From a virus (Duplodnaviria > Caudoviricetes), in IMG/VR virus record IMGVR_UViG_3300030606_000007, positions 1 to 60,348 of that record: a DNA stretch of 60,348 bases, one strand, 5' to 3'. The position numbers and the translations under genes are program-made. The stretch's first letter is position 1. Every line of letters begins with the position of its first letter. Shown one piece after another: positions 2,521 through 52,754 of this stretch. Below the pieces are notes generated by a model, which saw only the letters and a program-made list of their open reading frames with translations, was not told where the DNA came from and made no database searches.

Positions 2521-3129
2521 CTACTCGAACGAGTACCCGAACCTCGCCAGATCATCCGCGAACCGCCGCGTGACGATCTCGACGGCGCCCGAGTCGTACA
2601 TCGTCCGGTAGTCGCCCCTGGACGAGCGCTTGAGATGCGGAAGCTTCACATCCCTACCGAGCGCTTCGCACACCCGCGAGAAGTCCTCGCCGAGTGACTC
2701 GAACCGTCCGACGAAGCGCACGACCATCTCCTTGTTCTCGTCCGTCAGCCAATCGGTCTGCGCCATGAACATCTTCGGCTGGTCGTAGTAGCGCGGGTCC
2801 TGCTCATCGTAGGCGAGCCGCACCCATTCGTTGAAGCCGACGGGACGTTCCCCGAGCCCGGTCTGATTCGTCTGCACCCGGTAGGCGTAATGCGAGGCCA
2901 CCTTGTCCCACGGGTTGCGGACGAACGAGAAGCTAAACCGCTTTTTCCACTGCCTGCGTCCGATCTCTTCCAGTACTTCCTTGGCCGTCTGGAGACGGTG
3001 CGGGATGCCAAGCGCCCGCTTGATGGAAGTCCCGCCCGTCTTGTTGATGTGGATGAAGAGGAAGTCGGGAAGGCCGTGTCCGGTCAAGCGGGCCCGGTGC
3101 CTGCGAATCCTCGTTTTCAGCGCGATCAT
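2521..3129 (-). CDS. Sulfotransferase (Sulfotransfer_2-like), moron
   Basis: 5'-PSB motif FIHINKTGGTSI, 3'-PB motif FSFVRNPWDKVASHY, VGRFESL, C-terminal DLARFGY. Confidence 0.9.
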   Translation of the reverse strand: MIALKTRIRRHRARLTGHGLPDFLFIHINKTGGTSIKRALGIPHRLQTAKEVLEEIGRRQWKKRFSFSFVRNPWDKVASHYAYRVQTNQTGLGERPVGFNEWVRLAYDEQDPRYYDQPKMFMAQTDWLTDENKEMVVRFVGRFESLGEDFSRVCEALGRDVKLPHLKRSSRGDYRTMYDSGAVEIVTRRFADDLARFGYSFE

Positions 3130-3349
3130 TCGGCACTCTCGCGGTTGGGATAAGCGCCCCAAAGTAACATGCGGGAGCGGGCGGCGCGGGAGGGGGACCG
3201 GCGGCGGCCCGAAGCACCAGTCTCGCCTGCCCGACCGGGGTCCTTCGAGATTAAAGGTTGCTTGTTCACGGCTGCGTGACCCATCATGCAATAGGGGTCG
3301 GGGGGGCTCCGTCTCACAGCCTGCCAATCCCTGCCGGGAGTCCCGCCAG

Positions 3350-10118: not shown

Positions 10119-10666
10119 GCAGGGTGAAGCGCGAAGGCTGGGAGGACCCCGACCTGCTGATACAGGACGCGACCGAGGCCGCCAACCGCCTGCACGACGC
10201 CATCGAGGAAGGGGCCGGCACTGTGAAGAAGGACGACATCACCACCGTGATATCCGCGATCTACCATATGACGGACGAAGGGTGGTTGGCAGTCGTCTTC
10301 GGCCAAAGAGGCGGGAGGCGCGGAGGGCTCGCGCGGGCCAAGGCCCTGTCACCCGAGCGGCGTAAGGAGATCGCGCGTACGGCAGCCCTAGCACGATGGA
10401 GTAAGGAGAAGGGGGAGTCGGGTGGAATGGCTGACGCGCCGATGAAGGTCGGGATAATCCAGACGGACGGCACGGTCCCGGAATCGCCGTCCGGCTCCCC
10501 CACCCGGGCCGTTAGCTCAGTGGAAGCGCGCACCACTGGTGCGCCAGAGCAGCGGGCTTCTAACCCGCAGGTCGCTGGTTCGAGTCCAGCACGGCCCATG
10601 CCACACAACGCGCCCACCCTCGCTAGGGCTGAGGCGCTGGACAGGATGAGCGGGAGGGAGAGGTGA
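10115..10666 (+). CDS. Hypothetical protein with basic GGxARAxxLSPERRKEIA motif; frame stays open through the two RNA elements
   Basis: GTG after GGAGG; recognisable basic motif ending ARW; no stop until 10666. Confidence 0.6.
   Translation: MSRVKREGWEDPDLLIQDATEAANRLHDAIEEGAGTVKKDDITTVISAIYHMTDEGWLAVVFGQRGGRRGGLARAKALSPERRKEIARTAALARWSKEKGESGGMADAPMKVGIIQTDGTVPESPSGSPTRAVSSVEARTTGAPEQRASNPQVAGSSPARPMPHNAPTLARAEALDRMSGRER
10411..10504 (+). ncRNA. tRNA-like structured element (degenerate cloverleaf)
   Basis: GGGGGAGT/GCTCCCCC terminal stem followed by ACC; Leu-like D region GGTGGAATGGCTGACGC; CCGA/TCGG arm; CGGACGGC/GCCGTCCG stem. Confidence 0.5.
10506..10598 (+). tRNA. tRNA-Arg(UCU) with an enlarged D-loop; CCA not encoded
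   Basis: Acceptor GGGCCGT/ACGGCCC, D-stem GCTC/GAGC, anticodon arm GCGGG-CTTCTAA-CCCGC, T-arm GCTGG-TTCGAGT-CCAGC. Confidence 0.85.
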
Positions 10667-19132: not shown

Positions 19133-19498
19133 GTGAGCATCGCGGACTCACTCGCCAGCCTACCGGGCTCGACCCGCATCGAGTCCGTCACGATAGGTAC
19201 CCGGGGCTCGACGGTGGACGAGATACGGGCGGCGCTGGCGAATGGTGGGCAGCCGGCCTACATCACGACGACCGAGGCTGCCAGGCGCTTCTCCTACTCG
19301 GCCGAGACGTGGGCCAAGTGGGCACCGGACATCCACGGAGCCTACAAGGACCGGATGTGGCGCTTGCCGCTCGCGGCGTGTGAGGCCCATGTTGCCGCGC
19401 TCGCCCGACCACGGAGGATGCGTGGCCCCTGGAAGGCCCCAAAGACAGCGACCGCACCGGCCGGACGTTCTCGGCCCCCGCATCTACAGGTGCGGTAG
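19133..19498 (+). CDS. HTH protein, putative excisionase
   Basis: YITTTEAARRFSYSAETWAKW; directly upstream of the integrase. Confidence 0.55.
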   Translation: MSIADSLASLPGSTRIESVTIGTRGSTVDEIRAALANGGQPAYITTTEAARRFSYSAETWAKWAPDIHGAYKDRMWRLPLAACEAHVAALARPRRMRGPWKAPKTATAPAGRSRPPHLQVR

Positions 19499-20474
19499 AT
19501 GGCACTCGGTCGACATGCGGCCCTGGGGGCTCGGCAGGTTGACGATGCGAGATCCGAGGCATCCCGGCTGGCCGGAAGCGGGCGAGCGGACGGAGCTACG
19601 CGACGTGGCCGAACGCTGGAAGTGGGCCTATGTGGAGCTCGCTCACTCAGAGCACCGGACGCGGGTGCTCGGGCGCTCGAAGCCACGCACGATCGGCGAC
19701 GCGAAAGCCGAGTACGTTCTGCACCGGAGGGGCGTGGTCGAGCCGCGTACGCTGGCCAACGACGTGACATCGCTCGCGCACCTGGTGAGGGACTTCGGCG
19801 CGGGCACGAGCGTCCACCGGGTCAACCTCCAGAAGACGGCCGATCGGCTGCTGTCGGAGCAGTACACGAGCGCCACGGTCCAGCTTTACGTGCAGACCAT
19901 CGCAACGTTCCTACGCTGGTGTGGAGCGAGCCCCGAGTTCACGCTGCCGAAGAAACAGCGACCCGACGTGCGGGTGTGGACGGACACGGAGATCGGGCGT
20001 CTCAGGAAGCACGCGGGCGACATGCTCATCGCCGTGGATTGCGGGTTATACATGGGGCTCCGACAGGGCGAGATCTACGGACTACGCTGGGAGGACGTGA
20101 GCCAGCAGACGGTGCGCGTGGTGCGCCAGCAGGGCGGCCGGCCGCTCAAGGGCAAGAGAGCGCGGACCGCCGTCATCCTGCCGGGCTGGAATCACGAGCG
20201 GGGCGAGGGCCACGTCTGCCCGCAGTTCGAGGCCACGCGCCAGCACTACGAGTTCCGGGCCATGCTGGTGGCTGCTGGGCTGGACGAGCCGGGCGTGCGC
20301 TTTCATTCGCTTCGCCACACCTACGCGCGGATGTTCCTGGAGGCCAAGCCCGAGATGCGCTTGCTCCAAGCGAGCCTCGGTCACGCATCCGTCACCACGA
20401 CGGAGCGCCTCTACAATTGGCTCCTACCGGACCGAGCGGCAGAGATGGCGAGGGTCGCGATACACGGGGGCTGA
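19422..20474 (+). CDS. int: Tyrosine recombinase/integrase
   Basis: GLRQGEIYGLRWED, FHSLRHTYA, LGHASVTTTERLY; GTG start with GGAGG RBS. Confidence 0.92.
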   Translation: MAPGRPQRQRPHRPDVLGPRIYRCGRWHSVDMRPWGLGRLTMRDPRHPGWPEAGERTELRDVAERWKWAYVELAHSEHRTRVLGRSKPRTIGDAKAEYVLHRRGVVEPRTLANDVTSLAHLVRDFGAGTSVHRVNLQKTADRLLSEQYTSATVQLYVQTIATFLRWCGASPEFTLPKKQRPDVRVWTDTEIGRLRKHAGDMLIAVDCGLYMGLRQGEIYGLRWEDVSQQTVRVVRQQGGRPLKGKRARTAVILPGWNHERGEGHVCPQFEATRQHYEFRAMLVAAGLDEPGVRFHSLRHTYARMFLEAKPEMRLLQASLGHASVTTTERLYNWLLPDRAAEMARVAIHGG

Positions 20475-47551: not shown

Positions 47552-49179
47552 GCTTCCTCACGATCGAGGGCATGGCCGTGCCGGTCAACGCCGGCGCCTC
47601 CTCCGACGTGACGCCGTTCGGTGACGTGGGCCCCGCGTTCAGCGGCCTCATGCGTTCCGACATCCGCGCGCATCACCGGATGCTCCAGGTCACGACCGTC
47701 GAGATGGAGACGGCCGACATGCAGGCTCTTCGGGCGATCCTGCGGAGCCCCGGTCCGCTGCTGATCGGCGGCGATTGGATCGGCCAGGACGCCTACTTCA
47801 CGCTGCTCGGCGGCGTTCGTGTCCAGCCGCTTCCCACGGCCGACGACTACGTGCTCCAGTTCACGCTCCGCGAGACGGCCGACGCTCCCGCGCTGCTGCT
47901 GTTCAGCTTCGACGGTGACGCGCCGGGCGAGTACACCTTCACGCGCACCGGAGCCACCGCCACCGAGATAGACGAGAACGGCGTGCTGTCCACAGTCGCG
48001 GCGAACATCCTGCGGACGGACCACCTCGACCTCGACGGCGACGGGATCCGTGGGGACGTGGCGGTGCCGCTGGAGCGAGGGACGACGAACGAGTTGTTCC
48101 CATCCGAGAACCTGAACGACGGCGTCCGCTGGACGAAGACGAACCTCGCGGGCGTGACCGTCAACCAGGCCGTTGGCCCGGACGGTGCTACCTCGCTCGA
48201 TGCGATCGTCGAGGACGGCACGAACAGCTCGCATGAGGTGAGCCAGGCCGTGACCGGCATGACCGCCGATGCCAACTACGCGCTGTCGGGATGGTTCATC
48301 GCGAGCACGAGGACGTGGGTGCGGCTCCACATCCTGGAGACCGCCGCGTCCGCCAACATCGTGCGCGCCTGGTTCAACCTCGCCACGGGCGCCGTCGGCA
48401 CCACCAACGCCGGTGGCACGGGCACGTTCCTCCGCGCCTACGTCGAGGACTGGACGGACGTTGTGGAGGGCCTCTACCGGTGCGTGCTCGTGGGATCGGT
48501 CGGCAACTCCGCTACGGCGATCACGGGCGTGGCGGGGCTCGCCTCCGGCGACGGCGTCGGTAGCTACCAGGGTGATGGGTCCTCGCGGATCTTCGGCGGC
48601 TACATGCAACTGGAGGACGATACTCCGGCAGCGACAACCTACGTCAGCACCACGACGGTCGCGGTGGCTCGCGGCGCCGAGGCGTTCAGCGCACCGTTCG
48701 TCCACGCGCCCCAGGCGATGACGATCTACGCGAAGCTGATCGAGCGCGGCAACTCAGGGACGGCGGGAGTCCTCCAGATCGGCACCGCGACCGGAGCGGG
48801 CGACGCACGGATCGGCCTGCAATTCAGTTCGTCCGCGTACCGCGCCATCTACAACAACGGCTCTGGCGCGAATCAGACGGTGTCGCCCTCCGCGTCCCCC
48901 TCCGTCGGCCAACCGTTCGAGTTGATGGCGACGATCGACGAGGCCGGAAACCTGGAGTTCACGCAGGTCATCGACGACGGCGCGCCGGAGGTGGAGACGA
49001 ACGCCACGGGAGACGCGCTGCCGGCAGCTTGGCAGTCGCTCCTGATCCACCTCAACGCCACCGGCACGAGTAACGTGGGACTGATGGCGGGCGAGGCAAT
49101 CAAGATCGTCGGTAGCGTCAAGACACTCGCCGAGATGCGCAAGATCGCCGGCGCCAGGCTGTTCGCGAGGGTCGCATGA
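47548..49179 (+). CDS. Distal tail-like protein with carbohydrate-binding/LamG-like extension
   Basis: Follows the tape measure; FTRTGATAT, LE...TN.L..SE, G.YRC, QLE....TTY..TT. Confidence 0.65.
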   Translation: MSFLTIEGMAVPVNAGASSDVTPFGDVGPAFSGLMRSDIRAHHRMLQVTTVEMETADMQALRAILRSPGPLLIGGDWIGQDAYFTLLGGVRVQPLPTADDYVLQFTLRETADAPALLLFSFDGDAPGEYTFTRTGATATEIDENGVLSTVAANILRTDHLDLDGDGIRGDVAVPLERGTTNELFPSENLNDGVRWTKTNLAGVTVNQAVGPDGATSLDAIVEDGTNSSHEVSQAVTGMTADANYALSGWFIASTRTWVRLHILETAASANIVRAWFNLATGAVGTTNAGGTGTFLRAYVEDWTDVVEGLYRCVLVGSVGNSATAITGVAGLASGDGVGSYQGDGSSRIFGGYMQLEDDTPAATTYVSTTTVAVARGAEAFSAPFVHAPQAMTIYAKLIERGNSGTAGVLQIGTATGAGDARIGLQFSSSAYRAIYNNGSGANQTVSPSASPSVGQPFELMATIDEAGNLEFTQVIDDGAPEVETNATGDALPAAWQSLLIHLNATGTSNVGLMAGEAIKIVGSVKTLAEMRKIAGARLFARVA

Positions 49180-51110
49180 GGACGACCACGGCCGCGCAGG
49201 ACATCTACCTCGCGGCGAAGGACCGCAAGAGCCTCAACAGATTCCATGTCGAGGACGCGGACGGCGTCATGCAGGACATCTCCGACTTCTACATCAGCGG
49301 AGAGATCAGCGCCGATGAGGACACGCCGATCAGCGCCGCCACCATCGTTCTCTGGCGCAAGCAGGACGGGGCGAGCCTGTCGCCGCTGATCGAAGGCTCG
49401 AGCCTCAACCGCGACTCCACGGGCGCCTACGCGCCGCTCGTGAACCCGTACCGACGGATCACGGTCGAGACGGCTCCATTGCTGCCGGGCGAGGAGGTGG
49501 TCGAAGGCGACTGGCTGCTGCTGTGGGAGGGCCTCGTCGACGAGATCGACTGGGGCGGCTTCTCGTCCCGGGTGGTCATCAACGCCCGCGACCCCATGGC
49601 CAAGCTGCACGACAGGATCATCGAGACGGTGAGCGAGTACGGCACCGAATCCGGCCAAGCGATCGAGGACGTGATGCAGGAGATCCTCGACGACAACTTC
49701 GGGTCCGAGTTCGTGCTGGTGACGATCGGCGACCCGGACTTCGTGATCTTCACCTACGAGCTGGGCAACGTCAGCGTTCTCGACGCGCTCAAGGAGCTCG
49801 CCGACCTGATCGGCTGGAACCTGCACTGGAGGTGGCTCGACTCACCGGGCGAGTTCGGGCTGGTGTTCTACGAGCCGGACCGGGACAACGTGACCTCGGC
49901 CTACACGTTCGGACCCGACGACTACTACGACGTGGCCAGGGTCGGGCTCGGAGTGCACGGGATCCGGAACGCGGGCGAGGTGCTCTTTTCGGACAACAAC
50001 GACGAGCAGCAGAGCGTCACGGACGACCGCTCCAACTCCATCGCGATCTACGGCCGCAGGTTCATCAGGCTGGACGAGCGTAACGGGCCGATCTTCAACG
50101 GCACGCTCGCCAGTGAGCTGCTGAGCCGTGTCCTCGACGACCTCGAGGAGCCGTCGGTGCTCCAGGAGATCGAGGCGGCGTTCCACTTCCCGATTGAGCT
50201 CGGCGACCTCTACACGTATTTGGCCAACGGTGAGCACTACGACACCGATCAGGACTGGGCGGTGTTCGGCTACCGGCACATTCTGACGCCGGACCGGTGC
50301 AGGACGATCATCAGCGCATCCGGCAAGGCGTCTGGTGGGTTCGACCGGTGGCACCGGCGGGAGGGGACGGGGAGCGGTGGACGGGCCGCCTTGGCCAGCG
50401 TGGAGGTCACGTTCGACGCGAACGGCCAGGCTGTCGTCTCTGTCACAGGCGCCTCTGACACGTCCGCGATCTACGTCACAGTAGGGGACGGCACGGAGCC
50501 GGCCGATCCTACGTCGGTGGCGAACAACGGTGAAGTATTAGGGCGTAGCGGCACGATCGAGACGGGCGTGAAGGTCACGACCGGGAGAGACGCGTTCGTG
50601 AAGGTGGTCGTGGAGGACGGTACGGGCGCGATCGGGCCGGTGTCGAGCGCCAAACAGGCGCGGCGGCTTGGCCCCTTTCACAAGGACACGAGCTCCCGAT
50701 CGCATACCGGCGACACAGTCGAGACCACGCTCGATACCATCGCAATACCTGCCGGCGTGCTCGGCACGAACGGAGGGATGCGTTTCGGATACTTGATGAC
50801 GCTCAACCCGAACGCGACCGCTGTCGTACGGGTGAATCTCAACGGTGAGCTCTTGGCGCTCGCCACGTTCGGCGGGTCTGCTGTGAATCGGTTATTTGGC
50901 GAGGTTCTCATCTTCAACGACGGCGCGACCAACGACCAGCGCATCATCAATTTCACAGTCAGTAACGACGGGGGGGCCACCGCGGGGGTCACCAATCAGG
51001 CGGAGGACTCGACTGCGGACATGGACATCACGGTCACGATCGAGCTGGGGTTGTCGACTGACACGGCGACCCTGAGCACGACTTTCGCCGAGCTGATCGG
51101 GACGGATTAG
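49176..51110 (+). CDS. Tail hub/baseplate tip protein
   Basis: WEG.VDEI, I.ARD..AKL, S...YGRR, IELGD; beta-rich C-terminus. Confidence 0.65.
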   Translation: MRTTTAAQDIYLAAKDRKSLNRFHVEDADGVMQDISDFYISGEISADEDTPISAATIVLWRKQDGASLSPLIEGSSLNRDSTGAYAPLVNPYRRITVETAPLLPGEEVVEGDWLLLWEGLVDEIDWGGFSSRVVINARDPMAKLHDRIIETVSEYGTESGQAIEDVMQEILDDNFGSEFVLVTIGDPDFVIFTYELGNVSVLDALKELADLIGWNLHWRWLDSPGEFGLVFYEPDRDNVTSAYTFGPDDYYDVARVGLGVHGIRNAGEVLFSDNNDEQQSVTDDRSNSIAIYGRRFIRLDERNGPIFNGTLASELLSRVLDDLEEPSVLQEIEAAFHFPIELGDLYTYLANGEHYDTDQDWAVFGYRHILTPDRCRTIISASGKASGGFDRWHRREGTGSGGRAALASVEVTFDANGQAVVSVTGASDTSAIYVTVGDGTEPADPTSVANNGEVLGRSGTIETGVKVTTGRDAFVKVVVEDGTGAIGPVSSAKQARRLGPFHKDTSSRSHTGDTVETTLDTIAIPAGVLGTNGGMRFGYLMTLNPNATAVVRVNLNGELLALATFGGSAVNRLFGEVLIFNDGATNDQRIINFTVSNDGGATAGVTNQAEDSTADMDITVTIELGLSTDTATLSTTFAELIGTD

Positions 51111-51124
51111 GCATGACCACAAGA

Positions 51125-51553
51125 TCAATCAGGGATGAGCGGATTCGGCAGCCTACGCTCCTCGGAGCAAGAGGTCCAGGCCGGATGCGTGTGCTCCGGA
51201 GGCTCGTCCGCGCCGAGCCAGGCGTGCAGCATCTCGTGTCGCGCGGCGTACCACCAAGGCTGGTCATAGATCCACCGCGACAGGTAGATGTCCACCGGGC
51301 GGTCATGGCAACCGAAGGTCCGAAGGTGGAAGTCGCCGCACATGAAGTAGTCCGCCTCGACCCTGCGCCAGCGCAGATCATCGACACGTACCGGAGGGAT
51401 GACGCCAGCGCACTCGGACAGGGTTTGCCACAGCGAGTCCGCGACCGCGGGGGCCTCGACCTCGGTCGAATACACGTAGAGGCTTCCGTCAGCGGGACCG
51501 ATGACGTCCCCGCATCCGGAGAGCACGATCAGGGGGAGGGCGAGCGTTCGCAC
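51125..51553 (-). CDS. Lipoprotein with HExxH motif (moron)
   Basis: GGAGG RBS; signal peptide with lipobox LSG-C; RHEMLHA; several Cys. Confidence 0.75.
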   Translation of the reverse strand: MRTLALPLIVLSGCGDVIGPADGSLYVYSTEVEAPAVADSLWQTLSECAGVIPPVRVDDLRWRRVEADYFMCGDFHLRTFGCHDRPVDIYLSRWIYDQPWWYAARHEMLHAWLGADEPPEHTHPAWTSCSEERRLPNPLIPD

Positions 51554-52057
51554 GGGGACCTCCGTTCAGCGGATACCGCCGTCGGATCGACGGTGAAATC
51601 GCGGGCCATTTCGTCCCGCCGCTCTTTTCCTGCCTTCTACCTTCTCTTTCCTACCCTTCCACCTTCGTTGGTGAGGCTTGGTGCCGAGGCAGAGCGATCC
51701 CTAGGGAATCGAGCTACCTCGCTACCTTCGTCGGAGCCGGCCCGGCGACACGAGGGCGGGGCAGCGGTCACGCTTCCCGCTTGGCAGTTTTGCCGAGTGA
51801 CCTCGACCCTGACCGGGCTATCTGCCTTTTGCTCTGCCCTCGCCGGCTTCGTCCCTGGTAGCCAGCCCGCTCGCGCTGCAAGGCCAGGCGGTTTCACCCT
51901 CCCCCTTGCAGGCTTCGCGTGCAGGCAAAAGAGAACGCCTTGCACGCTAGCAATCATTGTCGCTGGCTCCGAAACACGACATGTCCGGCGCAGGGCCGGA
52001 AAGCGTACAAGGCGTTCTCTACAGCTTTTGTCGTGTTCCCGGAGCCCATCGATTGCT
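51554..52057 (-). ncRNA. Large structured RNA / 5' leader (~500 nt), family unknown
   Basis: Many long complementary segments whose mismatches are G-U pairs only on the minus strand; starts at the predicted TSS. Confidence 0.7.
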
Positions 52058-52063
52058 GAAAGG

Positions 52064-52092
52064 ATGATACACGCCACGCCGGCAAAGGTCAA
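52064..52092 (-). promoter_or_regulatory. Sigma70 promoter TTGACC-N17-TATCAT, TSS ~52057
   Basis: -35 at 52092-52087, -10 at 52069-52064; the +1 A is the first base of the first helix. Confidence 0.75.
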
Positions 52093-52248
52093 CCTGCACG
52101 GAGGCTCCCGTGTGTGAGGTGACCAGCGAGATCAGGCGGAAGCCCTTTGTTGGGCGGTGGTTGGTCGAAATAGCCCGCGACTCCAAGGAGATCGTGCGGA
52201 AGTGCAGGGAAGTGATGGAGCTCAAGGAACCCCAGCCCGAGGTGGACA

Positions 52249-52545
52249 ATGGTGGGTCCGGAACGCAGCGGCGTGCCTGATTCCTGGGCCGAGGGGGCGA
52301 TCCGGGAGGCGGCCGAGGGCGTCAAGGAATTGCGGAGGTGGTTCCTCGGCAACGGCTCTGAGGGTGTGGCGGCAAGGTTCGCGCGCATGGACGAGCGGCT
52401 GAAGGCGATCGAGGCGAAGATCGATGGTCTCGAAAGGGCCGGCGGGCGCGCAACAGAGGCGGAATGGCGCTTTTGGGCCAAGATTGTCGGGGTCGCGTCG
52501 GTGGCTGCCGGCGCGATAGAGGGCATCGCAATCCTGATCAGATGA
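52249..52545 (+). CDS. Coiled-coil protein with C-terminal TM helix (holin/XhlA-like)
   Basis: GNGSEGVAARFARMDERL...; hydrophobic C-terminus. Confidence 0.55.
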   Translation: MVGPERSGVPDSWAEGAIREAAEGVKELRRWFLGNGSEGVAARFARMDERLKAIEAKIDGLERAGGRATEAEWRFWAKIVGVASVAAGAIEGIAILIR

Positions 52546-52556
52546 GGAGACGCATC

Positions 52557-52754
52557 ATGGACCACTACTACTGGTGGAAGGGCTCGGACCTGCTGGCGAA
52601 CGGCTTCCTGCCGATGATCCTGAAAGAGGGCGCGGAGAACCTGCGGATCGATTTCCATCCACAGGACGGGATGCTGGTCATCAAGGACGCTGCCACGGGC
52701 GAAGTCTGTGGTACCTACAACCAGAGCCACACCTGCCCGCCGGATTGCCCGTGA
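52557..52754 (+). CDS. Small protein ending in NQSHTCPPDCP (CPPxC motif)
   Basis: AGGAG RBS, 65 aa, coupled to the next gene by GTGA. Confidence 0.7.
   Translation: MDHYYWWKGSDLLANGFLPMILKEGAENLRIDFHPQDGMLVIKDAATGEVCGTYNQSHTCPPDCP

What the first reader, a model, noticed from the sequence alone, without database searches (positions are those of the whole stretch)
51554..52092. Promoter-driven ~500-nt structured RNA with a long 5' pseudoknot/switch, upstream of a lipoprotein moron
Seen in sequence: a minus-strand promoter TTGACC-N17-TATCAT puts +1 at 52057, the first base of helix P1. P1 pairs AGCAAUC/GAUUGCU, GGCUCC/GGAGCC and GGAACACGACA/UGUCGUGUUUC (52057-52029 with 51981-51949). The P1 loop holds a hairpin (UCCGGC/GCCGGA) and a 19-nt segment (52020-52002) complementary to the 19 nt just 3' of P1 (51948-51930, then UUU). 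This A-B-A'-B' order gives either a very long pseudoknot or two exclusive folds. Downstream are nested helices: GCCUGC/GCGGGC, CUGCAAGG/CCUUGCAG, AGCCGGC/GCCGGCU, GAGGGC/GCCCUC, GGUCAC/GUGACC, GAGGUAG/CUGCCUC and CCGUCG/CGACGG, plus a ~40-nt purine tract. The mismatches I checked are G-U pairs only on the minus strand. Inference: an unrecognised ncRNA or riboregulator (attenuator, antisense target, RNA primer or ribozyme) expressed in the lysogen. I do not recognise the family.
Basis: partly seen in the sequence, partly recalled or inferred. Interest (0 to 1): 0.8.

Follow-up and report, generated by a model that had tools for sequence, protein, structure and literature searches.

The report
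Two-state leader RNA of a phage lipoprotein gene
An uncultivated soil phage carries a strong stand-alone promoter whose transcript can fold in two mutually exclusive ways, one of them a terminator-like hairpin, in front of a lipoprotein gene; this looks like an undescribed on/off leader RNA, known so far from only two phage sequences.

Summary
The promoter, every listed helix and the A-B-A'-B' order are in the sequence. TTGACC-17-TATCAT is the only 10-of-12 sigma-70 match on either strand of the 60-kb phage record. Region 51554-52109 is non-coding. Rfam gives no match, even at E<=10.

Only one relative carries the element (L002, an IMG/VR contig). There the promoter is kept. The 18-bp B:B' stem and its U-rich tail are kept, and all 3 substitutions preserve pairing. 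The 5' helix A:A' has an unrelated sequence but still pairs. In both phages it starts at the predicted +1 and ends directly against B'.

A full pseudoknot is sterically implausible, so the two folds exclude each other. My best reading (about 0.45) is a promoter-proximal terminator/antiterminator switch. It would give a short RNA of about 131 nt and a read-through mRNA for a lipoprotein moron beside the tail-fibre gene. The sensor is unknown.

The downstream 370 nt is only patchily conserved: one two-tier hairpin and a few sequence islands. Nothing supports a ribozyme, a primer or a single 500-nt fold. Two sequences and no RNA data limit every claim. Interest is moderate.

The parts
52064..52092 (-). 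Sigma-70-type promoter TTGACC-17-TATCAT (-35 at 52092-52087, -10 at 52069-52064). Predicted +1 is the A at 52057.
   Evidence: the only 10-of-12 site in the window on either strand. L002 has the same two hexamers and the same spacing. 38 of 40 bases are identical over 52097-52058.
52029..52057 (-). A: 5' strand of helix P1 (the proposed antiterminator). It starts at the predicted +1.
   Evidence: Only 16 of 30 aligned bases match L002, yet each phage's leader is complementary to its own A'.
52002..52020 (-). B: 5' arm of the terminator-like stem.
   Evidence: (I2). 17 of 19 bases are identical to L002.
51984..52000 (-). Small hairpin UCCGGC-N5-GCCGGA inside both folds.
   Evidence: L002 has CCGGCC-UCAC-GGCCGG at the same place.
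51949..51981 (-). A': 3' strand of P1. It lies inside the loop of B:B' and ends directly against B' with no spacer.
   Evidence: Only 7 of 22 aligned bases match L002.
51927..51948 (-). B' (51948-51930), the 3' arm of the stem, running into the U-rich tract UUCUCUUUU (51935-51927). The predicted 3' end of a short RNA of about 131 nt is here.
   Evidence: This is one of only 3 nine-mers with 7 or more T on the minus strand of the whole window. 23 of 26 bases over 51948-51923 are identical to L002.
51865..51926 (-). Hairpin H2 (GCCUGC/GCGGGC, CGCG/CGCG, CUGCAAGG/CCUUGCAG) with the conserved apical block AACCGCCUGGC.
   Evidence: window z = -3.20 (1 of 200 shuffles as good); L002 only z = -1.00 (32 of 200). 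Sequence is 41 of 52 identical.
51745..51864 (-). Middle part of the leader. Helices are predicted but are not the same in the two phages.
   Evidence: 59-64% identity with many gaps.
51685..51721 (-). Two-tier hairpin (CGAGGUAG/CUGCCUCG around CGAUUCC/GGGAUCG).
   Evidence: z = -3.31 (3 of 200 shuffles as good). The L002 counterpart at 4107-4068 has z = -5.82 (0 of 200) with a different outer stem (ACGGCAU/AUGCCGU, my reading). Only 17 of 43 aligned bases are identical. It is more stable on the minus strand (-22.7 against -17.3; -27.6 against -26.3 kcal/mol).
51610..51674 (-). Small hairpin UCACC-N6-GGUGG and a purine-rich tract with repeated GGA/GAAGG. In L002 this tract holds the ribosome-binding site and ATG of the lipoprotein gene.
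   Evidence: hairpin z = -1.9 and -1.5, weak.
51125..51553 (-). Lipoprotein gene (142 aa, lipobox LSGC, invariant HExxH): the gene that the leader precedes.
   Evidence: GC3 is 0.81 in this frame.
52110..52280 (+). Divergent 56-aa gene that bounds the module on the promoter side.
   Evidence: The protein is identical in L002, with 8 base differences of which 7 are at third codon positions. Contigs of relatives keep this gene but become unlike the window at 52095-52098.

Best explanation
This is the 5' leader of a self-contained, opposite-strand gene cassette (a 'moron') in a probably temperate phage. A strong sigma-70-type promoter starts transcription at about 52057.

The first 131 nt can take either of two folds.
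- **P1 fold.** The very 5' end (A) pairs with A'. This closes a helix that begins at +1 and ends directly against B'.
- **Terminator-like fold.** B pairs with B' over 18-19 bp and runs into a U-rich tract.

A' sits inside the B:B' loop and B sits inside the P1 loop, so the two helices exclude each other by topology and not by sharing bases.

Inferred mechanism: P1 forms first during transcription and acts as an antiterminator, so RNA polymerase reads on through about 370 nt of leader into the lipoprotein gene. Whatever occupies or removes A or A' lets B:B' form and stops transcription at about 51927, giving a short RNA. The candidates are a protein, an antisense RNA such as the phage's own plus-strand late transcript, or the short RNA itself.

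Shown: the promoter, the two folds, their conservation in one relative, and the non-coding nature of the leader. Inferred: termination, the order of folding in vivo, and the effector.
For: 1. **Promoter.** It is the only 10-of-12 sigma-70 site on either strand of the window. L002 has the same hexamers and spacing.
2. **B:B' stem.** 18 pairs, 36 of 36 cells paired. 16 pairs never vary, one changes G-C to G-U and one changes U-A to C-G, so all 3 substitutions keep pairing.
3. **Islands of conservation.** B is 17 of 19 identical and B' plus the U tract 23 of 26. The surrounding leader is 32-64% identical, and the flanking genes are about 95% identical.
4. **U tract.** The U-rich 9-mer is one of 3 on this strand in 60 kb.
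5. **A:A' complementarity.** In the window the leader-to-loop duplex is -39.3 kcal/mol; 1 of 1000 and 0 of 1000 dinucleotide shuffles are as good. In L002 it is -35.0; 13 of 1000 and 5 of 1000. The swapped pairs give -22.7 and -23.4, which is the shuffle mean. So the two strands changed together.
6. **Same geometry.** In both phages P1 starts at the A 7 nt after the -10 hexamer and ends with no spacer before B'.
7. **Folding order.** In stepwise folding, P1 is the best fold before B' exists in both phages.
8. **Energies of the two states.** Window: -56.6 (terminator) against -51.4 (P1). L002: -60.6 against -44.0.
9. **Strand.** The G-U pairs (one in B:B' in the window, two in L002) would be A-C mismatches on the plus strand. 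The 5' element is 4 kcal/mol more stable on the minus strand in both phages.
10. **Not coding.** The leader has flat GC at the three codon positions in both phages.
Against: - Only two sequences exist. The tool's own shuffle control has no power here: 270 of 500 shuffles reach the observed covariation.
- The terminator is non-canonical. It has a 42-53-nt branched loop and A-U/G-U pairs at the base of the stem, and the pattern scan did not call it.
- No effector, ligand-binding core or conserved leader peptide was found. The AUGs near the 5' end open frames of 31 and 6 codons that are not alike (my reading).
- In L002 the P1 state is 16.6 kcal/mol less stable than the terminator state. Read-through there would rest on folding kinetics alone.
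- Across the whole GC-rich window, chance 60-nt segments reach -39 to -41 kcal/mol against the leader (3 among the 7 best of about 6,000 segments).
- The plus strand of the whole region folds as well as the minus strand.
- There are no expression data.
Confidence: 0.45

Rival explanations
1. An independent small RNA gene. The promoter and the B:B' terminator define a trans-acting RNA of about 131 nt (about 113 nt in L002), with the variable 5' segment A as its seed. The lipoprotein gene is a separate matter, reached by leaky read-through or from its own unrecognised promoter.
For: - A promoter, a long hairpin and a U tract are the usual anatomy of a bacterial small RNA.
- In the terminator fold the 5' 32-37 nt are largely unpaired.
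- The prophage RNA IsrK shows that a short terminated form and a read-through form can coexist (PMC4825925, abstract and passages read).
Against: - No outstanding target for A elsewhere in the window. Apart from its own antisense, the best sites are at the level of A' itself (-41.1 to -39.2 kcal/mol).
- The short RNA pairs with the start region of the lipoprotein gene no better than with shuffled versions (94 of 100 and 83 of 100 shuffles as good or better).
- It does not explain why A and A' changed together.
- No second promoter-like site lies between 51925 and 51554.
Confidence: 0.2
2. A structured 5' untranslated region that acts after transcription. P1, flush with the 5' end, protects the mRNA from 5'-end-dependent decay. 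The long perfect helices are RNase III sites or set translation efficiency. The U tract does not terminate.
For: - P1 begins exactly at the predicted +1 in both phages. From established knowledge, 5'-terminal stem-loops stabilise bacterial mRNAs (recalled: the ompA leader).
- Stems of 18-29 bp have the length RNase III cuts (recalled).
- A hairpin UCACC/GGUGG covers a Shine-Dalgarno-like GGUGG just upstream of the L002 start codon.
Against: - It does not explain the conserved, genome-rare U tract placed right after B'.
- It does not explain why two exclusive folds are kept.
- The small hairpin is weak (z = -1.9 and -1.5).
Confidence: 0.15
3. An ON-type riboswitch. P1 closes an aptamer formed by B and the small hairpin, and a small molecule stabilises it against the terminator.
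For: - A variable but pairing P1 around a sequence-conserved interior, followed by a terminator that uses part of that interior, is the usual riboswitch layout (established knowledge).
- B is 17 of 19 identical between the two phages.
Against: - No Rfam family matches, even at E<=10.
- In the P1 state the local folds of B differ between the two phages.
- The conservation of B is already explained by its pairing with B'.
- A phage lipoprotein gene gives no hint of a ligand.
Confidence: 0.08
4. No RNA function beyond a promoter. The region is a fast-evolving or recombinant spacer, perhaps the remains of a lost gene, in GC-rich DNA that folds well by composition.
For: - The plus strand folds as well as the minus strand.
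- The middle of the leader is poorly conserved, and its predicted helices differ between the phages.
- The relatives found in sediment runs lack the module altogether.
- GC-rich segments reach similar duplex energies by chance.
Against: - Dinucleotide-preserving shuffles fold worse.
- All 3 substitutions in B:B' keep pairing.
- A and A' were both replaced and remain complementary around a conserved centre.
- The U tract is kept.
Confidence: 0.1

Closest known systems
Terminator/antiterminator transcription attenuators. Examples: the B. subtilis trp leader with TRAP (PMC3064811, abstract seen) and the general scheme in PMC3369936 (abstract seen). The countertranscript-driven attenuation of the pT181 repC leader is recalled, not read.
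   Same: - A promoter-proximal leader.
- A stem followed by a U tract.
- An alternative helix that forms earlier and excludes the terminator.
- A switch that would be set by whatever binds the 5' strand of the antiterminator.
   Different: - The two helices share no bases. They are interleaved (A-B-A'-B') and exclude each other by topology.
- The terminator loop is 42-53 nt and branched.
- No effector is identified.
- Termination is not shown.
IsrK of the Gifsy-1 prophage and the seqA/CI RNA immunity of satellite phage P4 (PMC4825925, abstract and passages read; the P4 papers are seen only as its references 45-47).
   Same: - A prophage-borne promoter gives a short terminated RNA and a read-through mRNA.
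- Alternative folds decide the outcome.
- In P4, an RNA made from the same transcript pairs with complementary sites upstream and downstream and causes early termination.
   Different: - No sequence or structure match to any Rfam family, even at E<=10; that the library holds isrK and C4 families is recalled.
- The downstream gene is a lipoprotein, not an antiterminator or a replication gene.
- No complementarity between the short RNA and the start region of the gene.
- No evidence of processing.
The lambda late promoter PR' with its short terminated 6S RNA and terminator tR' (recalled; the role of Q is summarised in PMC4825925, passage read).
   Same: A strong constitutive-type promoter, close to the lysis genes, is followed within 100-200 nt by a terminator that must be overcome for downstream expression.
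   Different: - It points away from the lysis genes, toward a single lipoprotein gene.
- The element carries its own RNA antiterminator helix.
- No Q-like protein or binding site was identified.
Superinfection-exclusion lipoproteins encoded beside receptor-binding genes: Llp of T5 and Cor of T1 (PMC11990801, passages read).
   Same: The regulated gene is a small lipoprotein gene placed directly after the tail-fibre gene. Its mature part and the tail-fibre C-terminus both differ between the two phages.
   Different: - The window's lipoprotein has an invariant HExxH motif, and its weak fold matches are zinc proteases.
- No exclusion function was tested.
- No long structured leader is reported for Llp or Cor, as far as I recall.

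Membership tests
Intrinsic-terminator attenuator (leader with terminator and antiterminator) | Lies between a promoter and the regulated gene, on the same strand. | tested here: met
   The promoter is at 52092-52064, the element at 52057-51927 and the gene at 51553-51125, all on the minus strand.
Intrinsic-terminator attenuator (leader with terminator and antiterminator) | A stable stem directly followed by a U-rich tract. | tested here: inconclusive
   An 18-19 bp stem is followed by UUCUCUUUU (7 of 9 U; UUUUCUUUU in L002). But the loop is 42-53 nt and branched, and the pattern scan does not call it.
Intrinsic-terminator attenuator (leader with terminator and antiterminator) | An alternative helix that excludes the terminator. 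| tested here: met
   P1 (A:A') and B:B' are interleaved. Both states were computed in both phages. The complementarity exceeds shuffles.
Intrinsic-terminator attenuator (leader with terminator and antiterminator) | A sensor: a ligand, protein, tRNA, antisense RNA or leader peptide. | tested here: not met
   There is no conserved leader peptide (my reading), no plus-strand promoter-like site for a countertranscript and no Rfam aptamer. A protein effector cannot be tested with these tools.
Intrinsic-terminator attenuator (leader with terminator and antiterminator) | Regulated termination observed. | not testable with these tools
   No listed holder of the stretch is on record as RNA.
Rfam families, including the prophage RNAs isrK and C4 and the large phage-linked RNAs GOLLD, ROOL and HEARO (that the library holds these names is recalled) | A match to the family covariance model. 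| tested here: not met
   cmscan of 51000-52600 at E<=10 gave 0 matches. The whole window at gathering scores gave only a tRNA.
IsrK-type dual-isoform RNA | The short isoform pairs with the long isoform near the start of the regulated gene. | tested here: not met
   The duplex of the short RNA with the start region is no better than with shuffled versions (94 of 100 and 83 of 100 as good or better).
Riboswitch | A conserved ligand-binding core across many lineages. | not testable with these tools
   Only two sequences were found.
Retron msr-msd RNA | A reverse transcriptase gene directly downstream. | tested here: not met
   The downstream gene is a 142-aa lipoprotein with no Pfam or PHROG match.

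The most novel reading that the evidence does not exclude
The element is a self-titrating RNA switch with a phage-specific 'address'.

In the terminated short RNA, A is free at the 5' end and A' is displayed in the loop of B:B'. These RNAs could pair in trans with the complementary A' or A of nascent transcripts. That would stop P1 from forming and force termination. Expression of the lipoprotein cassette would then be capped by the amount of its own short RNA.

Because A and A' differ completely between the two phages while staying complementary (the swapped pairs are at background), each phage would answer only to its own RNA. This is comparable to the specificity of P4 or plasmid antisense immunity, but it needs no separate antisense gene and no processing.
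Probability: 0.1. Interest if true: 0.75.

Novelty: new variant of a known kind. Interest (0 to 1): 0.5.

Why it matters
- **For phage gene regulation.** Morons are usually drawn as promoter, gene and terminator. A built-in RNA decision point would show that they can carry their own conditional control.
- **For RNA switches.** It would be an example of two long helices that exclude each other by interleaving and not by competing for the same bases. The antiterminator starts at the first transcribed base.
- **For the cargo.** The promoter, leader and signal peptide are shared by two phages, but the mature lipoprotein and the tail-fibre tip differ. That suggests a reusable expression platform for exchangeable surface-acting cargo.
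- **Limits.** The family has two members, no host and no RNA data. For now it is a well-defined hypothesis and not a result.

Tried and rejected
**Searches for more homologues**
- IMG/VR scans gave only the L002 contig. The queries were the B'+U-tract pattern, the leader block CTCACCAANGAAGGTGGAAGG, the promoter 29-mer and the neighbouring 98-aa protein, alone and as an alignment.
- Species genomes: alignment A1 found nothing. A 19-base B' pattern found 3 sites, none with a complementary 5' arm or further similarity.
- `phages` collection by blastn: no match.
- The metagenome collection could not be searched. The machine gave no answer three times and the cap then counted as used.
- Relatives cannot be drawn for a virus record.
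- Loci L003-L011 share only the DUF5675 protein. They have 30-49% GC and no match by nhmmer or blastn.

**Expression**
- No RNA holder was listed among 12 runs.
- Contigs of 4 sediment runs do not cover 51896-52081. This is not evidence of absence.

**Structure transfer**
- About half of each phage's predicted pairs survive mapping to the other through the MAFFT alignment (73 of 142 and 76 of 138). Apart from the 18 forced B:B' pairs, only 4 column pairs are common to both folds.
- RNAalifold reports 8 of 80 pairs with changes on both sides, but it selects for such pairs.

**Readings considered and dropped**
- Trans targets: none stand out.
- A coding reading of the leader, including the 151-aa ORF, the 334-aa plus-strand ORF and the L002 173-aa ORF: rejected on GC3 and frame breaks.
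- attP or a replication origin: the integrase and the DnaB and ParB genes lie 25-45 kb away.
- I did not build a covariance model, because two near-identical B:B' arms would find only what the patterns already found.
Full report
**Setting**

The window is a single IMG/VR virus record of 60,348 bases. It is classed linear and about 86% complete, with 63-71% GC in 1-kb windows. My GC3-based gene list has 61 ORFs, 54 of them on the plus strand. The two minus-strand ORFs of 100 aa or more with a coding-type GC profile that I followed up are a sulfotransferase-like gene (2521-3327) and the lipoprotein gene (51125-51553).

The record carries these recognisable genes:
- ParB-like, cytosine methylase, DnaB helicase, large terminase and portal;
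- a tail protein;
- an integrase-family ORF at 19242-20474, so the phage is probably temperate.

The finding lies between the tail-fibre-like gene (49176-51110, plus strand) and a run of small plus-strand genes that leads to a DUF5675 protein.

Yes.
- The promoter TTGACC-17-TATCAT is at 52092-52064 on the minus strand. With the same criteria applied to the whole window and both strands, only two sites exist and this is the only 10-of-12 match.
- The A at 52057 lies 7 nt after the -10 hexamer and is the first base of helix P1.
- The 504-nt transcript folds better than dinucleotide shuffles (z = -3.67, 0 of 100). So do its first 133 nt (z = -3.84, 0 of 200).
- The plus strand folds as well (z = -4.59), so energy alone does not give the strand.

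**Coding or not?**

Region 51554-52109 has flat GC at the three codon positions (0.55-0.70). The lipoprotein gene shows 0.75-0.85 at its third positions over 51070-51609, and 0.81 for the whole ORF.
- The 151-aa minus-strand ORF (51637-52092) begins inside the promoter. It has no Pfam or PHROG match.
- In the relative L002 that frame is broken by indels that are not multiples of three. The ORF from the same start there is 61 aa.
- The L002 leader is equally flat (GC3 0.65), and GC3 rises to 0.78 from the lipoprotein ATG onward.

**Known RNA families**

Rfam 15 gives nothing for 51000-52600 at E<=10. For the whole window at gathering scores it gives only a tRNA.

**Relatives**

One IMG/VR contig (L002, L012 and L013 are parts of it) has the same neighbourhood.
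- The 56-aa and 98-aa plus-strand genes are about 95% identical in DNA.
- The 56-aa protein is identical, with 8 base differences, 7 of them at third codon positions.
- No other sequence with the element was found (listed under tried and rejected).
- Contigs from sediment metagenomes keep the 56-aa gene at about 94% identity, but become unlike the window at 52098 (run X3) and 52095 (run X5). That is just outside the -35 hexamer.

The promoter, leader and lipoprotein gene therefore behave as one insertable module. Its right edge is at about 52095 and its left edge is the end of the tail-fibre gene.

**What is conserved in the module**

| Segment | Identity to L002 |
|---|---|
| Promoter region, 52097-52058 | 38 of 40 |
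| A | 16 of 30 aligned |
| B | 17 of 19 |
| Small hairpin | 11 of 19 (the stem is kept) |
| A' | 7 of 22 aligned |
| B' + U tract | 23 of 26 |
| Remaining leader | 40-79%, with many gaps |

Conservation drops sharply at +1 and returns only on the two arms of one helix and its tail.

B:B' has 18 pairs and all 36 cells are paired. The three substitutions are one compensatory U-A to C-G change and one G-C to G-U change. With two sequences the tool's shuffle control cannot discriminate (270 of 500), and I do not claim statistical covariation from it.

**The 5' helix**

A and A' are essentially different sequences in the two phages, yet each leader is complementary to its own loop.

| Leader paired with | Duplex energy (kcal/mol) | Shuffles as good |
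|---|---|---|
| Window leader, own loop | -39.3 | 1 of 1000 (leader shuffled), 0 of 1000 (loop shuffled) |
| L002 leader, own loop | -35.0 | 13 of 1000, 5 of 1000 |
| Window leader, L002 loop | -22.7 | at the shuffle mean |
| L002 leader, window loop | -23.4 | at the shuffle mean |

In both phages the helix begins at the A 7 nt after the -10 hexamer and ends with no spacer before B'. Both strands were replaced around a conserved centre (B and the hairpin). That is hard to explain by a single insertion and points to selection for pairing.

A caution: among about 6,000 segments of 60 nt in this GC-rich window, 3 unrelated ones reach -39 to -41 kcal/mol against the window's leader.

**Two states**

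- A full pseudoknot would need 8 nt to cross a 19-bp stem and 0 nt to cross a 29-bp stem. I regard that as impossible (inference).
- Stepwise folding shows P1 as the best fold before B' is made, in both phages.
- With B' present, the terminator-like state is as good or better: window -56.6 against -51.4; L002 -60.6 against -44.0.
- B' runs into UUCUCUUUU (UUUUCUUUU in L002). Nine-mers with 7 or more T occur only 3 times on this strand in 60 kb.
- The G-U pairs in B:B' would be A-C mismatches on the plus strand. The 5' element is 4 kcal/mol more stable on the minus strand in both phages.

Together with the promoter, this puts the RNA on the minus strand.

**Downstream 370 nt**

Structure conservation here is patchy.
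- A two-tier hairpin (51721-51685) is significant in both phages: z = -3.31 (3 of 200 shuffles as good) and z = -5.82 (0 of 200). The outer stems differ, only 17 of 43 aligned bases are identical, and it is more stable on the minus strand.
- Hairpin H2 is strong in the window (z = -3.20) but not in L002 (z = -1.00).
- A small hairpin over GGUGG is weak.
- The middle 120 nt fold differently in the two phages.
- On the sequence alignment, about half of each phage's predicted pairs survive transfer to the other. That alignment is unreliable where indels abound.

I therefore do not accept a single 500-nt structured RNA as shown.

The purine tract holds the ribosome-binding site and ATG of the L002 lipoprotein. 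In the window a 40-nt insertion supplies a new GGAGG-N5-GUG start instead.

**How it most likely works**

I read the first 131 nt as a terminator/antiterminator switch in the leader of the lipoprotein cassette.
- P1 forms first and allows read-through.
- Anything that occupies A or A' lets B:B' form, ending transcription at about 51927 and leaving a short RNA.

The general logic is that of known attenuators (PMC3369936 and PMC3064811, abstracts seen).

A close prophage precedent is IsrK of Gifsy-1. There a short terminated RNA and a read-through mRNA coexist with alternative folds. The same paper describes P4, where an RNA from the same transcript pairs with complementary sites to cause early termination (PMC4825925, abstract and passages read).

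The effector here is unknown. I found:
- no conserved leader peptide;
- no promoter-like site for a countertranscript;
- no pairing of the short RNA with the start region of the gene.

The plus-strand late transcript, which must cross this region to reach the lysis-side genes, is a natural antisense candidate. That is pure inference.

**What is regulated**

The lipoprotein has a lipobox (LSGC) and belongs to a small family. phmmer found 17 proteins at E<=0.001 among 1.84 billion representatives, the query's own sequence included. H106, E107 and H110 (HExxH) are invariant in my alignment of 14 sequences, 13 of those 17 hits plus P0006.

A confident model (mean pLDDT 81.2) has no significant PDB match (best E = 0.75). 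Most of the weak top matches are zinc proteases.

In L002 the signal peptide is homologous, but the mature protein is a different chain that brings the ORF to 72 aa. The tail-fibre C-termini also differ.

A position directly after the receptor-binding gene is where Llp- and Cor-type exclusion factors sit in other siphoviruses (PMC11990801, passages read). This is an analogy only.

**Verdict**

This is a real, non-coding, promoter-driven RNA element with a conserved two-state 5' domain. It is absent from Rfam and known from two uncultivated phage sequences.

I file it as a new variant of a known kind, a transcription attenuator leader. The difference is that the two helices are interleaved and share no bases, and the antiterminator begins at +1.

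The main limits are two sequences, a non-canonical terminator, no effector and no RNA data. Supplementary files of the cited papers were not consulted, and none bears on these claims.

Noticed in passing
window 51125-51553 (-): The lipoprotein downstream of the leader has an invariant HExxH (H106, E107, H110) and conserved cysteines in an alignment of 14 family members of about 120-220 aa. A confident model (pLDDT 81.2) has no significant PDB match, but most of its weak top matches are zinc proteases such as HtpX, selecase/abylysin, serralysins and BepA. It may be a minimal zinc-protease lipoprotein.
   Followed up: partly
L002 3808-4026 (-) against window 51125-51553: The two phages share the promoter, the leader and a homologous signal peptide (…ALxLIVL[SA][GA]C). 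The mature lipoproteins are unrelated (142 aa against a 72-aa ORF), and the tail-fibre genes next door differ in length (644 against 979 aa) and in their C-termini. This looks like cargo exchange behind a fixed expression platform.
   Followed up: partly
window 51551-51569 and 52094-52112: A 19-nt inverted repeat, 16 of 19 complementary, flanks the whole promoter-plus-leader (I3). Both arms are translation start regions (ACGGAGG-N5-GTG): one of the 56-aa gene and one of the lipoprotein gene. The lipoprotein-side arm lies in a 40-nt insertion that L002 lacks. On the plus-strand late transcript the two arms could pair and cover the ribosome-binding site of the 56-aa gene.
   Followed up: no
window 10431-10598 (+): The only other sigma-70-like site in the window (CTGACG-16-GATAAT, 9 of 12) lies about 50 nt upstream of a 93-nt tRNA gene (Rfam 65 bits). 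ARAGORN could not assign its anticodon. By my reading, it has a perfect hairpin of about 21 nt inserted in the D-loop and an anticodon loop CUUCUAA (UCU, Arg).
   Followed up: partly
window 2521-3327 (-): The other long minus-strand gene with a coding-type GC profile matches a PHROG annotated as galactose-3-O-sulfotransferase, in the moron/auxiliary category (E = 4.7e-20).
   Followed up: no
window 52110-52280 (+): A 56-aa ORF with a GTG start is identical in protein between the two phages, with 8 base differences of which 7 are at third codon positions. It is a real small gene of unknown function, with no Pfam or PHROG match.
   Followed up: partly
window 52095-52098: Contigs from sediment metagenome runs X3 and X5 keep the 56-aa gene, but upstream of it they carry a different sequence that is similar between those two runs. 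The promoter-leader-lipoprotein module is therefore absent or replaced in those relatives.
   Followed up: partly
window 51610-51674 (-): A purine tract with repeated GGA and GAAGG motifs. In L002 three GGA motifs surround the lipoprotein start codon. From recalled knowledge, clustered GGA motifs are what CsrA/RsmA-type translational repressors bind. Not tested.
   Followed up: no
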